Source: an uncultured bacterium
GTDB taxonomy: Bacteria > Patescibacteriota > JAHJAL01
Reading direction: 5' to 3'
DNA: 64,000 bases
NCBI GenBank assembly: GCA_938004065.1
Contig: CALKWM010000020.1
Location: forward strand, 1,813-65,812
The notes below the pieces were generated by a model. It was not told the origin of the DNA, searched no databases, and was given only the letters and a program-made list of their open reading frames with translations. Position numbers and translations under genes: made by a program. The stretch's first letter is position 1; each line of letters begins with the position of its first letter. Below are positions 6,537 to 13,262 of the stretch, piece by piece.

Positions 6537-9500
6537 TTATTTTATTGAATTTTCTACAATTTCAATTTCCTCTGGCGTAAGTTCGTAGAGTTTATAAACA
6601 AGCTGATCAATTTGCGATTCAAGATTTTTAGTATCCGCGTCTTTATTTTGTTTTTTGAGAGTTAAAATTTGATCAACTAATTTTACTAATGAATCTTGTG
6701 ATTCCTGACTGTTACGAATAATAGGAATTTGTGACATAGAGCCATTTTTTTGAGCTAAAAAATATTTATATCCACCACCTGCGTCCTTACCCTCATTTTT
6801 ATACCAAAAATTTAAAAGCTTTGAATTTAAAATAGCGACAATGTATTTTAATGCTAAGTCTGAATTTTCTTTTTTTAATAAAACAGGAACATTACCCACG
6901 GTAAAATAATTATCATCATCATAACTAAAACGATTTTCATCTGAGCGATAAGGTGTTAAAATTTTTTCTTGTTCAAAAAATTCCTTTTTTCTTGGCCAAT
7001 TTATGCTATACCATGGTATCTTGCCACTAACGCACTCTCGTTTTTTTTCTAATAAAACACGATATTTTTCAAGGTGTTTTTTTATATTTGGATACTTTTC
7101 TATGTGATGATCTTTTGTTATATAAATTAAATAATGTCTTTTGCTTCTTCTATTGGTAGCAAATTTCTTTACTTCATCAGTTGTAATCCAATCTTTTATT
7201 AATTCCTTTTTTTCTTCCAAATTTGGGCTTATTTCTGTTAAATCATTTTCTGTTAAGATAAAAATGCCTTTATTGGCTTCCCAATTTTTATTATATTTTG
7301 TTGCCAAAGTATTTGTAACTTTATCCGCACCTGTAATTATCCCTTGTTTAATTTCACAATATTCTGAAATAGGTTTACCTTTTTTCTTAATTTTATTTAT
7401 TAAATCTAAAACATCGGAAGATTTTGCATTTTCTGCGGGGATATCAATAATTAAATCATTCCCTTTATATAATTGTTGTTGTTCGAGGGAAGCGTAAAGA
7501 GATTTTTTATCTGACCAATCAAAAATAGATCTAAGAATTTCCGAATCAGCAAAACCTTTATTTTGCGTGCTACATATATTCGCTAAAAAATTTTTATCTG
7601 TGTTTTTTTCTAAAATTGTTATTATATTATGTTGCCCTAGAGCTGATTTGAATATTTTTAAATCATTGAAATTGATCAACTTTTTTATTATAGTACGTTT
7701 TTTAAAATCTTCTCTCAAGATTTTTGCCCCATTGGAAGATAGATAATAATTTGTTGTTATAAAAGATAGTTGTCCACTTTCTTTTAACAAATTTAATGAT
7801 CTATGAAAAAAGAAGTAGAACAAATCCATTCTACGTTTGTAAAAATTACCAAGAGACCCCATTCTCACAATTCTAAATATTTCTTTATGTCCTTTTTCAC
7901 CAACATACGGTGGATTTCCTATCACAACATCAAAGGCTTGAACCCCGTGCATTAATTCCGGATCGTAAAATTCTGAAGATGAGCTAATATCAAACGGTTT
8001 ATAGCTTTTTAATTGCTGTGTTTTTTTGTTATCAAACAAACTAGCATTTTGCGTAAGCTTTAGATAATCCTTTTGCAATTTTTCTTTTTTTATTTTGCTA
8101 CTTGTTTTGAAATATTCATTCCGAATAGTTATCAATTTATCTTTTAGATCATGGTCGGTAAGAAATGTTGCTTGCTCAGTGTTATCAAGCGGAATAAGTG
8201 TGTTGGCGCAAACAAATTTAAACTCAAGGTTTGGCAATGGGTCAACCTTTTCACCTTCTGGAATATCCACAATTATTGAAAGCCAAGCTCGCAGACGAGT
8301 GATCTCAATGGCTGTTTGTTCAATATCCACACCATAAAGTGATCGTGATAAAATATCTCGTTTTAATCCCGAAATATCTTTTTCAAATTTTGGATCAAGG
8401 CGAGAATATACTTTCACGAGTAAATGAAGCATGCCCATCGGAAAAGCACCAGATCCAACCGCAGGATCAAGCACTGTGAGAGGAGATTCTGTTTTTGAGC
8501 CTTCAAGCGCTTTTATAATAGCTTCACGATACGGCTTCCAATCACGACGTTTATTTTGATCCTGATCACGGAATATTGCTTCAGGCATACGCACAAGCTC
8601 TTCTATACGACGATCACGATCTGGGGCTTCTGGAACTTTAGTCTTGAGATATTCAATCAAGGATTGCTCGCACATATAGCTCACGATTTCTCGCGGAGTA
8701 TAAAAAGCACCGGTGGCTTTCTTTTTGCTATTGCCCGTATTTTCGTCAATTTGCTCTGCAAGCAAACTCTCAAAAATACGCCCCAACATTTCAGGATCAA
8801 TAGCGACATGCTGGAATTCCGGACTACTTTCATCAACTGTAAAATTGTATTTATTTAAGGTTGTAAAAAGTTGATTAAAATAACCATTTGGAAAAGTTAG
8901 TTTTGGGTCGTTGAAAAAATCAGTCGTGTTTTTATCAAAAAGACCACCGTTCAAATAAGGAGTCAATTTATCGCCGTTATCTCTTTCTAGTTCTTCTCGA
9001 TTTAATACTTCAAAAAAAAGTTTTTCCAGTTGGTTTTTGTAGTATTCTGATTGTTTTTCCGGATCAATCACCGAAAAATAATTAACATTATTATTTACTA
9101 AATTTTTCTTTTTCAAAAACCAAATAAAAAGCAAACGTCCAATAAGTCTGGTCGTGAACATTACTGACTGTTTGCGTCCAAAATCTTTTTCAAGATGGTG
9201 TACTAAAATGCTAAAATGTTCAACCAATTCAAGGTAAAATTTGCGATTGATCGGTTCAAAGTTGAAGCTTTCCCAAAGTTTTGAGTGTAAAGTATTTTTT
9301 AATTCAGCCTGATCAGCAATCTCTAATTCGGAAAGTTTCGCCCATTGAGTAAATATTTCTAATTGGGTTGGGGTAATATGATCTTTTAATTCAAGAGCGC
9401 GAATCTTAAATCTATTAGAAAGCAAAACTATTATACTATCGCAGGTTTCTGGTACAACAAAATCAATCCCTATATTTTTATAATCATTTGAAAGTGCATC

Positions 9501-9824
9501 TTCAAAATTTGGAGTAAGACCAATAATCCACGAAAGATTTGTTTTGCTAGTTTTTTTGACCCAAAAAAGTTTAAGATCAACTGGTTTTCCGTCTTCGTGC
9601 GGTAATTCATACGCCGCCGCTTGGCGAGCAAAACCTGGAGCAAGTTGAAATCTCGTTAATTCCGCGTCTACGCGAGGTATATTTACCAAAAATCTGTCTG
9701 TGGTTTTTATATTGAGTAGCCCAACCAGTTCCGTCGTAATTTTTTCCGCGACATCAAAAGATCTTTCATTTGAAAGTTGTTTTAAGAGTTGGTCAAATTT
9801 GTTTTTTATCTCTAGGGTATTCAT
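6537..9824 (-). CDS. Large gamma-class N6-adenine DNA methyltransferase (Type IIG / PglX / Type ISP-MTase-like) with a long N-terminal domain and a C-terminal putative TRD
   Basis: GAFYTPREIVSYM (motif I/X region) and VIGNPPYVGEKG (motif IV NPPY) are present. About 350 aa precede the MTase core and about 400 aa follow it. The start lies 4 bp after the stop of the upstream helicase gene. Confidence 0.8.
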   Translation of the reverse strand: MNTLEIKNKFDQLLKQLSNERSFDVAEKITTELVGLLNIKTTDRFLVNIPRVDAELTRFQLAPGFARQAAAYELPHEDGKPVDLKLFWVKKTSKTNLSWIIGLTPNFEDALSNDYKNIGIDFVVPETCDSIIVLLSNRFKIRALELKDHITPTQLEIFTQWAKLSELEIADQAELKNTLHSKLWESFNFEPINRKFYLELVEHFSILVHHLEKDFGRKQSVMFTTRLIGRLLFIWFLKKKNLVNNNVNYFSVIDPEKQSEYYKNQLEKLFFEVLNREELERDNGDKLTPYLNGGLFDKNTTDFFNDPKLTFPNGYFNQLFTTLNKYNFTVDESSPEFQHVAIDPEMLGRIFESLLAEQIDENTGNSKKKATGAFYTPREIVSYMCEQSLIEYLKTKVPEAPDRDRRIEELVRMPEAIFRDQDQNKRRDWKPYREAIIKALEGSKTESPLTVLDPAVGSGAFPMGMLHLLVKVYSRLDPKFEKDISGLKRDILSRSLYGVDIEQTAIEITRLRAWLSIIVDIPEGEKVDPLPNLEFKFVCANTLIPLDNTEQATFLTDHDLKDKLITIRNEYFKTSSKIKKEKLQKDYLKLTQNASLFDNKKTQQLKSYKPFDISSSSEFYDPELMHGVQAFDVVIGNPPYVGEKGHKEIFRIVRMGSLGNFYKRRMDLFYFFFHRSLNLLKESGQLSFITTNYYLSSNGAKILREDFKKRTIIKKLINFNDLKIFKSALGQHNIITILEKNTDKNFLANICSTQNKGFADSEILRSIFDWSDKKSLYASLEQQQLYKGNDLIIDIPAENAKSSDVLDLINKIKKKGKPISEYCEIKQGIITGADKVTNTLATKYNKNWEANKGIFILTENDLTEISPNLEEKKELIKDWITTDEVKKFATNRRSKRHYLIYITKDHHIEKYPNIKKHLEKYRVLLEKKRECVSGKIPWYSINWPRKKEFFEQEKILTPYRSDENRFSYDDDNYFTVGNVPVLLKKENSDLALKYIVAILNSKLLNFWYKNEGKDAGGGYKYFLAQKNGSMSQIPIIRNSQESQDSLVKLVDQILTLKKQNKDADTKNLESQIDQLVYKLYELTPEEIEIVENSIK

Positions 9825-12800: not shown

Positions 12801-13262
12801 TTCGCGATTTGAAGTAATGCCATTTTTTGTAAAATTAGAAGAACCTATGACACCGATTGCTGTTTCGGATTCAAAATTACCAAAAATATAACATTTAGCA
12901 TGCAAAAATGCTTTTTTAAAAACTTTTACTTCAAGGATTTTATTATCAACTAATTGTTTTAACTCTTTTACTGTTGGTTTTAAATTACTGTCGATTTTTA
13001 GTTTTTGCAGATCTTCAAAAATATCTTTGTCTGGAAAATCTGGTTCAACTTCATTTAGTTGGTGTCGTGGGATTAAGGGTTCTCGACCAATAAGTAAACG
13101 AATTTTTTTATATTTTTTCAAATGAGGTAAAAGCAAAGCAGTCGCCTCAAGATCCCAATATCCAGTAGCAATAGAAATTTCATCAAAGTTAGCACTAACA
13201 GAAATTAGACTATTTAATAAATCTACTCTAGTATTGTCGATGATTTTTGGAAATTTTTTCAT
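9828..13262 (-). CDS. PLD-family nuclease fused to an SNF2/SWI2 helicase (SF2 ATPase)
   Basis: An N-terminal HKD motif is intact: [29 protein letters not shown]. Helicase motifs present are [16 protein letters not shown] (I), [10 protein letters not shown] (II) and [10 protein letters not shown] (III). The C-terminal lobe reads [35 protein letters not shown] (V-VI). Confidence 0.85.
   Translation of the reverse strand: [1144 protein letters not shown]

What the first reader, a model, noticed from the sequence alone, without database searches (positions are those of the whole stretch)
6537..13262. Two-gene PLD-nuclease::SNF2-helicase plus giant gamma-class N6A-MTase module resembling a split Type ISP enzyme
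ORF 9828..13262 fuses an intact HKD phospholipase-D-family nuclease domain (LHAKCYIFG...GSSNFT) to a complete SNF2/SWI2 ATPase. Four bp downstream, ORF 6537..9824 is a 1095-aa adenine MTase (GAFYTP, NPPY) with about 350 aa N-terminal and about 400 aa C-terminal of the catalytic core, the latter presumably a TRD. Type ISP enzymes such as LlaGI have this nuclease-translocase-MTase-TRD order in one chain, but with an Mrr nuclease. Here a PLD nuclease substitutes and the chain is split. There is no DrmA/DrmB, so it is not DISARM, and no PglZ/BrxC, so it is not BREX. I do not recognise this as a named, characterised defense system.
Basis: partly seen in the sequence, partly recalled or inferred. 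Interest (0 to 1): 0.8.

Follow-up and report, generated by a model that had tools for sequence, protein, structure and literature searches.

The report
Two-gene helicase-nuclease plus methylase restriction module
Two adjacent genes form a likely phage-defence restriction-modification unit: one protein marks and recognises DNA, the other is a motor-driven nuclease; the pairing is widespread and has been noticed before, but nobody has tested it.

Summary
ORF 9828-13262(-) is an intact single-HKD (PLD) nuclease fused to a complete SNF2 ATPase. Three bases downstream, ORF 6537-9824(-) is a 1095-aa gamma-class N6-adenine methyltransferase of the Eco57I/MmeI (Type IIG/IIL) kind.

The methyltransferase's C-terminal third is a swappable TaqI/CamA-like target-recognition domain. 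It is 25% identical between proteins that are 91-100% identical elsewhere. The N-terminal 345 aa are a poorly conserved, probably inactive nuclease-like domain plus the helical domain shared by MmeI, PglX and HsdM.

The pair is conserved, with no constant third gene, in Patescibacteria, many other bacterial and archaeal phyla, and small lactic-acid-bacteria plasmids. No DUF499, DUF3780, DrmA/B, PglZ or BrxC gene is nearby here or in the related loci checked.

Best reading: a two-subunit ATP-dependent restriction-modification system. It works like a split Type ISP enzyme and is related to MANTIS (BREX-related type 2) and to DrmD/DrmMI of class 1 DISARM.

It is unnamed and untested. The same architecture and reading were already published for Lactococcus pLd8 (2018) and noted again in 2023. 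Verdict: new variant of a known kind, moderate interest.

In this window the module sits in one integron-like cassette.

The parts
9828..13262 (-). R-like subunit: HKD(PLD) nuclease - SNF2 ATPase - orphan C-terminal domain, 1144 aa
   Evidence: Best PADLOC match C3a139 'HKD+Snf2' 3.4e-41. DrmD 141 bits (cut-off 610) and MANTIS-type PLD protein 133 bits (cut-off 1100) in NCBIfam.
12768..13184 (-). Single HKD/PLD nuclease domain (residues 27-165); HxK at 12894-12902
   Evidence: PLDc_2 1.4e-08 and RE_NgoFVII 2.3e-07. H121, K123, N143 and E154 invariant. This N-terminal domain occurs almost only at the start of 1040-1240 aa proteins.
10719..12536 (-). SNF2 motor (residues 243-848): N-lobe with Walker A GLGKT and DESH, long insertion, Helicase_C lobe
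   Evidence: SNF2-rel_dom 8.5e-15 and Helicase_C 2.3e-14. Motifs invariant. Closest solved sequences DDM1 and RapA.
9831..10652 (-). C-terminal 274 aa of the helicase-nuclease; no known family; candidate docking domain (inferred)
   Evidence: No Pfam match at E<=0.01. Moderately conserved in homologues.
6537..9824 (-). M/S-like subunit: Type IIG/IIL-like gamma N6-adenine methyltransferase with TRD, 1095 aa
   Evidence: REase_MTase_IIG 1.7e-135; CamA 3e-35 over residues 630-1076.
9315..9824 (-). N-terminal alpha/beta domain (residues 1-170) at the position of the Type IIG/IIL nuclease; probably inactive
8790..9314 (-). Helical domain (residues 171-345) shared with MmeI, PglX and HsdM N-terminal domains
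7890..8789 (-). Methyltransferase core (residues 346-645): GAFYTP, DPAVGSGAFP (motif I), NPPY (motif IV)
   Evidence: motif residues invariant in 23 sequences.
6675..7889 (-). Hypervariable region (residues 646-1050): distal methyltransferase fold plus TaqI/CamA-like target-recognition domain
   Evidence: Mean 23% identity versus 75-76% in the flanking regions. 25% versus 91-100% in near-identical backbones. TaqI_C 7.5e-13. CamA alignment.
6540..6674 (-). Conserved C-terminal helix (residues 1051-1095) that closes the swappable cassette
   Evidence: 80-96% identical where the TRD is 20-25%.
5544..6535 (-). Facultative third gene, DUF3644 family, here broken by a 52-nt internal deletion (two frames: 6347-6535 and 5544-6392)
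   Evidence: 79% identical to the intact 347-aa DUF3644 gene after the pair in L088. Absent or replaced by unrelated genes in other loci.
13285..13378 (-). 94-nt element just upstream of the helicase-nuclease start, repeated upstream of another cassette gene (18598-18691); promoter or 5'UTR-like (inferred)
   Evidence: family D5, 84% identity.
13424..13532 (.). attC-like recombination site bounding the cassette on the upstream side
   Evidence: Folds as an imperfect hairpin, z -3.1.
5248..5352 (.). attC-like recombination site bounding the cassette on the downstream side
   Evidence: Hairpin z -4.2.

Best explanation
This is a two-subunit, ATP-dependent restriction-modification module.

**Recognition and modification subunit (6537-9824).** It reads a short DNA site through its single, swappable TRD. 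It methylates adenine N6 there to mark host DNA. Its own N-terminal nuclease-position domain is probably inactive.

**Restriction subunit (9828-13262).** It has no recognisable DNA-reading domain. It contributes an SNF2 motor and one HKD half-site.

**Inferred steps:**
1. The methyltransferase bound at an unmodified site recruits or licenses the HKD-SNF2 protein.
2. ATP hydrolysis drives translocation along the DNA.
3. A single HKD copy cannot form a PLD active site alone. Cleavage therefore needs two HKD-SNF2 protomers, either as a constitutive dimer or as two converging complexes.
4. A monomeric single TRD implies an asymmetric site methylated on one strand. Self DNA would then be protected after replication by requiring two unmodified sites in a defined orientation, as in Type III, Type ISP and MANTIS.

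**Shown:** the domains, intact catalytic motifs, TRD hypervariability, gene coupling, conservation of the pair, and absence of other partners.

**Inferred:** physical interaction, hemimethylation, translocation, the two-site rule, and anti-phage activity.
For: - Intact nuclease-type HKD and SNF2 motifs are invariant across homologues.
- The methyltransferase motifs are intact and the C-terminal half is homologous to CamA/TaqI-type methyltransferase plus TRD.
- TRD swapping: 25% identity in residues 646-1050 against 91-100% elsewhere.
- On Lactococcus pJM1F an inverted spare TaqI_C cassette and an invertase sit next to the methyltransferase. Programmed TRD inversions are reported for such pairs (PMC9881135).
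- The genes are 3 nt apart here and 1-3 nt apart or overlapping in relatives.
- Searches started from the helicase-nuclease found the pair in 6/6 metagenome loci (three distinct loci, each recovered from two samples). They also found it in 57/80 best genome loci across bacterial and archaeal phyla, in either gene order.
- Searches started from the methyltransferase found the pair in 3/3.
- It is the main cargo of 11.8-15 kb plasmids.
- No constant third gene was found. DUF499, DUF3780, DUF1998, PglZ and BrxC are not among the frequent neighbour families.
- The N-terminal domain of the methyltransferase has no conserved D...ExK and only weak fold matches. This fits outsourcing of the nuclease.
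- The MANTIS effector MtsD, an HKD plus SF2 ATPase protein, is a dimer forming one PLD site and acts downstream of a methyltransferase that reads the site (bioRxiv 10.64898/2026.09.23.753747).
- The same reading was proposed for pLd8 orf33/34 (PMC6098607).
Against: - No experiment on any member was found in the searched library.
- In the window's own subfamily D129, E145 and mostly K147 are present, so residual nuclease activity of the methyltransferase subunit is not excluded.
- Nothing here demonstrates interaction between the two proteins.
- MANTIS needs an AAA+ loader and DUF3780 for methylation. Those are absent here, so the analogy may fail at that step.
- The adjoining DUF3644 gene is broken. 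That could signal a decaying cassette, although both large ORFs are uninterrupted.
Confidence: 0.68

Rival explanations
1. The 1095-aa protein is a complete, self-sufficient Type IIG/IIL enzyme with an active N-terminal nuclease. The HKD-SNF2 protein is an accessory or back-up effector that enhances or extends restriction, rather than being the only nuclease.
For: - The protein matches a Type IIG restriction enzyme-methyltransferase profile at 1.7e-135.
- D129 and E145 are invariant and K147 is common in the close subfamily.
- In the same window a paralogous SNF2 protein with a dead PLD accompanies a complete Type III system. Such helicases can therefore be accessories.
Against: - D121, D129, E145 and K147 are replaced in Neisseriaceae, Bacteroidota, Nitrospirota and Lactococcus members that keep the pairing.
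- The HKD is invariant precisely in this family but lost in the paralogue that sits beside a real nuclease.
Confidence: 0.15
2. Two independent defence genes happen to lie side by side in a defence island: an orphan or Type IIG methyltransferase, and a solitary PLD-helicase nuclease.
For: The surrounding 19 kb is packed with unrelated restriction systems, so adjacency alone is weak evidence in this window.
Against: - Adjacency is conserved across phyla, in both search directions, with 3-nt spacing or overlap.
- Helicase and methyltransferase backbones diverge in parallel: 87% helicase identity goes with 85-92% in the non-TRD regions of the methyltransferase, and 42% with 34-47%.
- The helicase-nuclease has no DNA-recognition domain.
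- The pair is the main cargo of small plasmids.
Confidence: 0.06
3. It is a remnant or split part of a larger named system (BREX-related type 2/MANTIS, class 1 DISARM, or BREX), with the missing genes lost or encoded elsewhere.
For: - Profile similarity of the helicase-nuclease to DrmD, HmaA, BrxH and the Gao_RL PLD-helicase.
- Profile similarity of the methyltransferase to PglX and DrmMI.
Against: - All these scores lie far below the family cut-offs.
- No DUF499, DUF3780, DrmA/B, PglZ or BrxC was found in the window.
- None appears among the frequent neighbour families of 80 related loci.
- The pair is complete on 11.8-15 kb plasmids.
Confidence: 0.04
4. It is not defence. The pair is an epigenetic or phase-variable regulatory methyltransferase coupled to a DNA-repair or remodelling helicase.
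For: Phase-variable Type IIG methyltransferases can alter gene expression (cited in PMC9881135). SNF2 proteins such as RapA have housekeeping roles.
Against: - An invariant nuclease-type HKD.
- Location in a cassette array of restriction systems and on mobile plasmids.
- TRD diversification of the kind seen in restriction systems.
Confidence: 0.04

Closest known systems
Type ISP restriction-modification enzymes (LlaGI, LlaBIII)
   Same: Same functional parts in the same order: nuclease, SF2-type translocase, gamma N6-adenine methyltransferase, single TRD. An asymmetric site and a two-site collision logic are expected (PMC3874165).
   Different: - Here there are two polypeptides, not one.
- The nuclease is an HKD/PLD (metal-independent and needing dimerisation) instead of an Mrr-type PD-QxK.
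- The motor is SNF2-type.
- The methyltransferase subunit keeps a Type IIG-style N-terminal relic domain.
MANTIS / Gao_RL / BREX-related type 2 (MtsA-D)
   Same: The effector is an N-terminal HKD nuclease fused to an SF2/SNF2 ATPase. A separate N6-adenine methyltransferase reads the site.
   Different: - No DUF499 AAA+ ATPase (MtsA) and no DUF3780 protein (MtsB). Both are required for methylation in MANTIS.
- The helicase-nuclease scores 133 bits against a cut-off of 1100 for the NCBIfam equivalog.
- It is about 250 aa longer.
- The methyltransferase is of the Eco57I/MmeI type, with its own N-terminal domains.
Class 1 DISARM (DrmD SNF2 helicase + DrmMI methyltransferase + DrmABC)
   Same: An SNF2 helicase next to a large N6-adenine methyltransferase that methylates a non-palindromic site, with a PLD nuclease in the system.
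   Different: - The defining core DrmA and DrmB (DUF1998) is absent.
- The PLD is fused to the SNF2 protein rather than being a separate DrmC.
- DrmD scores 141 bits against a cut-off of 610.
Type IIG/IIL enzymes (MmeI, DrdV, BpuSI, Eco57I, Cj0031)
   Same: The methyltransferase subunit has the same layout: nuclease-position domain, helical spacer, gamma methyltransferase, TRD. It matches a Type IIG profile at 1.7e-135.
   Different: The nuclease motif is not conserved. An obligate-looking partner gene supplies an ATPase and a different nuclease. Type IIG/IIL enzymes are ATP-independent single chains.
L. lactis pLd8 orf33/orf34 and pJM1F pair (uncharacterised 'putative type II R-M')
   Same: Same two-gene architecture. 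The proteins align end to end: helicase-nuclease 35% identical over 91% of its length, methyltransferase 32% with E 3e-149. The published reading is the same.
   Different: Different phylum, plasmid-borne. Some copies carry an invertible spare TRD cassette and an invertase, which are not seen in the window.
CglI / NgoAVII (PLD nuclease R-protein + helicase H/N-protein) and SauUSI
   Same: ATP-dependent restriction using a PLD nuclease together with an SF2 motor.
   Different: In CglI/NgoAVII the PLD protein itself reads DNA through a B3-like domain and the methyltransferase is a separate C5 enzyme. SauUSI is a single-chain, modification-dependent Type IV enzyme.

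Membership tests
Type ISP R-M | Single polypeptide carrying nuclease, translocase, methyltransferase and TRD | tested here: not met
   Two ORFs separated by a stop codon and 3 nt. They are separate genes in all relatives.
Type ISP R-M | Mrr-like PD-(Q/E)xK nuclease at the N-terminus | tested here: not met
   The N-terminal domain is PLDc_2 / RE_NgoFVII with HxK.
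Type ISP R-M | Gamma-class N6-adenine methyltransferase followed by a single TRD | tested here: met
   Eco57I/N6_Mtase plus TaqI_C. Hypervariable TRD.
Type ISP R-M | ATP-dependent translocation and cleavage on collision between head-to-head sites | not testable with these tools
   Needs biochemistry.
Type IIG/IIL R-M | Methyltransferase and TRD in one chain, matching Type IIG profiles | tested here: met
Type IIG/IIL R-M | Active N-terminal PD-(D/E)xK nuclease in the same chain | tested here: inconclusive
Type IIG/IIL R-M | ATP-independent action by a single protein | not testable with these tools
   The conserved ATPase-nuclease partner argues against it.
MANTIS / BREX-related type 2 | DUF499 AAA+ ATPase (MtsA) | tested here: not met
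   None in the window. Not among the frequent neighbour families in related loci.
MANTIS / BREX-related type 2 | DUF3780 protein (MtsB) | tested here: not met
   No Pfam hit in the neighbouring ORFs. The third gene is DUF3644.
MANTIS / BREX-related type 2 | HKD-helicase effector equivalent to MtsD | tested here: not met
   The architecture is shared, but NF042964 scores 133 bits against a cut-off of 1100.
DISARM (class 1) | Core DrmA helicase and DrmB (DUF1998) | tested here: not met
   Absent from the window and from the frequent neighbour families. Definition.
DISARM (class 1) | DrmD SNF2 helicase and DrmMI methyltransferase at family level | tested here: not met
   DrmD 141 bits against a cut-off of 610. 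DrmMI only 2.7e-15 in PADLOC.
BREX | PglZ phosphatase and BrxC ATPase with PglX | tested here: not met
   No PglZ or BrxC. PglX 81.9 bits against a cut-off of 500.
HKD-SNF2 + Eco57I-like methyltransferase pair (unnamed; pLd8 orf33/34 type) | Adjacent co-oriented genes: N-terminal HKD + SNF2 protein of about 1100-1230 aa, and a 1000-1150 aa Eco57I-type methyltransferase with a TaqI_C TRD | tested here: met
   Literature description.

The most novel reading that the evidence does not exclude
The pair represents a widespread, minimal class of ATP-dependent restriction-modification. A Type IIL-like methyltransferase that has lost its own nuclease directly recruits an HKD-SNF2 motor-nuclease, without the AAA+ loader that MANTIS and BREX need. 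It would be the simplest member, and possibly the evolutionary core, of the family of methylation-based systems built around SNF2 helicases (MANTIS, Hma, class 1 DISARM). In this window it is mobilised as an 8-kb integron-type cassette in a Patescibacteria genome.
Probability: 0.45. Interest if true: 0.65.

Novelty: new variant of a known kind. Interest (0 to 1): 0.5.

Why it matters
If the reading is right, this is the smallest gene set that couples site-specific hemimethylation to a motor-driven, metal-independent nuclease.

- It would allow a clean test of a question raised by the MANTIS and BREX work: whether an ATPase loader is intrinsically needed for this kind of methyltransferase, or whether the Type IIG-style N-terminal domains replace it.
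- Annotation pipelines label only the methyltransferase (as Type IIG) and call the effector a generic helicase. Defence inventories therefore misdescribe the system.
- The family occurs on dairy-starter and enterococcal plasmids, so it is relevant to phage resistance in fermentation and to barriers to gene transfer.
- The swappable TRD on a constant backbone could be useful for engineering specificities.

Tried and rejected
1. **A conserved third gene.**
   - The ORF after the pair (5544-6392) is unrelated to the genes after the pair in L001 and L003.
   - It is a DUF3644 gene, shared with L088 and distantly with L005, and is broken here. It is therefore facultative.
2. **Hidden partners.**
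   - Pfam scans of 126 and 98 neighbouring ORFs from 80 related genome loci showed no DUF499, DUF3780, DUF1998, PglZ or BrxC among the 25 most frequent families.
   - The commonest neighbour family was found in only 5 ORFs.
3. **An active PD-(D/E)xK nuclease in the methyltransferase.**
   - The candidate residues are not conserved.
   - Left as inconclusive, probably inactive.
4. **Membership of MtsD or DrmD.** NCBIfam scores for this protein and for eight relatives of both gene orders are all far below the cut-offs.
5. **Invertible TRD cassettes in the window.** No inverted duplicate of the TRD region was found between 4000 and 14000, unlike pJM1F.
6. **Experimental characterisation.** Searches for an experimentally characterised member turned up no paper testing this pair. 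That covers the lactococcal antiphage screens, the S. thermophilus study and the Hma paper.
7. **The PADLOC name C3a139.** It traces to a list of candidate accessory genes of type III CRISPR systems. Its full-length match is the other SNF2 protein in the window, not this one.

Full report
**Observation**

The minus strand carries two long ATG-initiated ORFs, 9828-13262 (1144 aa) and 6537-9824 (1095 aa). The quoted motifs are present. The stop codon of the first gene and the ATG of the second are separated by 3 nt.

**The helicase-nuclease (9828-13262)**

Pfam finds four features:
- PLDc_2 at residues 27-165.
- The NgoFVII-type PLD nuclease domain.
- SNF2-rel_dom.
- Helicase_C.

Fifteen homologues down to 41% identity were aligned. 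H121, K123, S141-S142-N143-F144-T145 and E154 of the nuclease-type HKD motif are invariant. So are Walker A (GLGKT), D344/E345/H347 of the DESH box, and motif VI.

There is only one HKD copy. The last 274 aa match no Pfam family.

A search of 1.84 billion representative proteins with the first 235 residues gave 808 hits at E<=1e-3. Almost all full-length hits are 1040-1240 aa with this domain at the N-terminus. The fusion is therefore a distinct, moderately large family.

**The methyltransferase (6537-9824)**

Sequence matches:
- Pfam Eco57I (3.3e-32), N6_Mtase and TaqI_C.
- A REBASE-derived Type IIG profile in PADLOC at 1.7e-135.
- Residues 630-1076 align with the solved C. difficile enzyme CamA (3e-35).

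Alignment of 23 homologues shows strong conservation up to NPPY (residue 640). A hypervariable stretch follows, then a conserved C-terminal helix. Mean identity to the window protein by region:

| Residues | Mean identity |
|---|---|
| 1-170 | 63% |
| 171-345 | 75% |
| 346-645 | 76% |
| 646-1050 | 23% |
| 1051-1095 | 53% |

The sharpest case is P0130. P0130 is 98-100% identical over residues 1-345, 91% over 346-645, 25% over 646-1050 and 91% in the tail. This is cassette-like swapping of a specificity domain on a constant backbone.

**The N-terminal 345 residues of the methyltransferase**

- Its weak hits include several restriction-endonuclease-fold proteins: the Type IIL enzyme DrdV (5.6), 3ijm (4.8), BpuSI (4.5) and Hjc (4.2).
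- A possible D129...E145-x-K147 motif exists in the window protein.
- These positions are replaced in paired homologues from Neisseriaceae, Bacteroidota and Nitrospirota, and from Lactococcus.

I read this domain as a relic of the Type IIG/IIL nuclease that is probably inactive. This is not proven.

**Conservation of the pair**

- Three helicase-nuclease homologues (87%, 46% and 42% identical) each have the large Eco57I-type methyltransferase immediately downstream.
- Three methyltransferase homologues each have the HKD-SNF2 gene 3 nt upstream.
- In a scan of one genome per GTDB species, 57 of the 80 best loci have such a methyltransferase adjacent. In 37 the order is helicase then methyltransferase, in 20 the reverse. 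Several of the remaining loci are truncated contigs.
- These loci span Omnitrophota, Pseudomonadota, Bacillota, Bacteroidota, Chloroflexota, Planctomycetota, Cyanobacteriota, Acidobacteriota and Verrucomicrobiota. They also include Thermoplasmata, Nitrosopumilaceae and Asgard archaea.
- Neighbour scans found no recurrent partner and none of the BREX, BREX-related or DISARM signature families.
- On plasmids the pair is the main cargo of an 11.8-kb L. plantarum replicon. On 15-kb L. cremoris pJM1F an inverted spare TaqI_C cassette and an invertase adjoin it.
- The window and pJM1F methyltransferases align end to end (32%, E 3e-149).

**The third gene**

ORF 5544-6392 is 79% identical to residues 76-347 of an intact DUF3644 protein that follows the pair in L088. 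Residues 1-63 are encoded upstream in another frame. The cause is a 52-nt deletion. Other loci have unrelated genes or nothing at this position. DUF3644 is therefore an occasional companion, and it is inactivated here.

**Relation to named systems**

NCBIfam scores against the family cut-offs:

| Model | Score (bits) | Cut-off (bits) |
|---|---|---|
| DrmD | 141 | 610 |
| MANTIS/Gao_RL PLD protein | 133 | 1100 |
| PglX | 82 | 500 |

- Eight relatives of both gene orders behave the same way.
- BREX-related type 2 (MANTIS) is defined by DUF499, DUF3780, a methyltransferase and an HKD-helicase. The first two are absent here.
- DISARM is defined by DrmA, DrmB and DrmC. DrmA and DrmB are absent.
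- No ORF of at least 600 aa in the window could supply them.
- The Type ISP definition (single chain, Mrr nuclease) is failed on both counts, but the functional order of parts is the same.

**Prior literature**

- van Mastrigt et al. 2018 described pLd8 orf33 (PLD + SNF2 + helicase C) and orf34 (a REBASE Type IIG methyltransferase with a TRD but no restriction domain). They proposed that orf33 supplies the nuclease, and they noted the resemblance to class 1 DISARM (PMC6098607).
- Milman et al. 2023 listed Type II methyltransferase genes with an adjacent PLD + SNF gene among loci with programmed inversions (PMC9881135).
- I found no experimental study of this pair.

**Mechanism**

The best-supported model is a two-subunit ATP-dependent restriction-modification system.
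- The methyltransferase subunit recognises and methylates an asymmetric site.
- The HKD-SNF2 subunit translocates and cleaves.
- HKD dimerisation supplies the active site. This is seen in the MtsD dimer and is established for BfiI-type PLD nucleases.
- Hemimethylation, the two-site rule and the physical interaction are all inferences.
- The main rival is that the methyltransferase subunit retains its own nuclease and the helicase is an accessory.

A paralogue in this same window bears on that rival. It has the same architecture but RxR in place of HxK. It sits in an operon with DUF4391 and a complete Type III Mod/Res pair. The same arrangement is found on an E. faecium plasmid. The HKD is thus intact where the partner lacks a conserved nuclease motif, and degenerate where the partner system has its own nuclease. 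That pattern favours the division-of-labour model for the finding.

**Genomic context**

- The window comes from a 67-kb metagenome contig.
- The nearest named relatives are Patescibacteria, including Harrisonbacteria.
- The three genes lie between two attC-like sites, at 13424-13532 and 5248-5352.
- At least nine such sites punctuate 0.3-19.5 kb. They have the form xTAAC-GT-arm ... arm'-GTTAxxx, are 100-140 nt long, and fold as hairpins with z from -3 to -6.
- These sites separate cassettes that carry other restriction systems.
- A divergently oriented XerA/IntI-like recombinase sits at 19654-20466.

The module therefore appears to be one large cassette of an integron-like array.

**Verdict**

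The module is an unnamed, untested but already noticed two-gene variant of ATP-dependent restriction-modification. Interest is moderate.

Noticed in passing
window 300-20466: Integron-like array. At least nine attC-like sites (TAAC...GTTA boxes around 11-14 bp inverted arms, 100-140 nt) lie at about 336-475, 2326-2450, 4091-4225, 4233-4372, 5248-5352, 13424-13532, 18759-18895, 18901-19040 and 19388-19522. They separate minus-strand cassettes that mostly carry restriction or defence genes. A divergent XerA/IntI-like tyrosine recombinase sits at 19654-20466. It scores 226.9 bits on NF040815 (cut-off 220) and 212 bits on the integron-integrase model (cut-off 265), and it lacks the IntI insertion. 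Cassettes of up to 8 kb in a Patescibacteria genome would be unusual.
   Followed up: partly
window 36620-47418 (+): Second SNF2 protein (36620-39877, 1085 aa). It has the same architecture as the finding's protein and is 28-31% identical to it. It matches PADLOC C3a139 'HKD+Snf2' over its full length (1e-150), but its PLD motif is degenerate (RxR instead of HxK). It heads an operon with DUF4391 (39879-40670), Type III Mod (40660-42630), an AlbA_2/Schlafen-like protein (42641-44323) and Type III Res (44407-47418). The same helicase-DUF4391-Mod-Res set occurs on an E. faecium conjugative plasmid.
   Followed up: partly
window 5544-6535 (-): DUF3644-family gene split by a 52-nt internal deletion relative to the intact homologue in L088. 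A divergent DUF3644 gene after the pair in L005 is also split into two ORFs.
   Followed up: yes
window 5387-5537 and 13624-13768: A pair of G-rich hairpin elements: 91 nt at 84% identity, followed by 52 nt at 100% identity. Each copy lies directly after the stop codon of a cassette's last gene (ORF 5544 and ORF 13775). Function unknown; possibly a terminator or a small structured element.
   Followed up: partly
window 4088-4387, 18756-19055, 19385-19684: A 300-nt repeat in three copies (96% and 67% identical to the first). It contains the GC-rich attC-like site and is unusually GC-rich for this 33% GC sequence.
   Followed up: no
window 4377-5264 (-): The mechanical ORF for an HD-domain protein starts inside the attC-like site 5248-5352. 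Its first 70 or so residues look like translated repeat, and the real start is probably the internal Met near MINKKIQQ.
   Followed up: no
window 13775-18610 (-): Further defence cassettes upstream: a beta-class methyltransferase (13775-14695) overlapping a GmrSD/HEC-06 Type IV enzyme (14674-16362), a weak DpnII-like endonuclease (16365-17354) and another methyltransferase (17360-18610). A BglII-like endonuclease with its methyltransferase lies at 622-2174.
   Followed up: partly
window 20461-22041: An AAA_14/DUF4143 ATPase (20601-21779; PADLOC candidate PDC-S01, 1.8e-66) is flanked by 122-nt direct repeats at 20461-20582 and 21920-22041 (84% identical), just beyond the recombinase gene.
   Followed up: no
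window, whole: GC skew is weakly negative (-0.03 to -0.13) across the minus-strand cassette region. It then rises through 0.14-0.26 over about 19-24 kb and stays very strongly positive (mostly +0.3 to +0.47) across the plus-strand genes beyond that. The asymmetry suggests the cassette region differs in composition from the rest.
   Followed up: no
loci of group A (e.g. L040-L086), downstream of the pair: A DNA_processg_A (DprA/SLOG-like) domain protein was the most frequent neighbour family of the distant helicase-then-methyltransferase pairs, found in 5 of 126 ORFs.
   Followed up: no
L087 (L. cremoris pJM1F) 8763-10230: An inverted stand-alone TaqI_C specificity cassette and an Mpi-family invertase lie next to the methyltransferase of the homologous pair. 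This implies phase-variable specificity.
   Followed up: no
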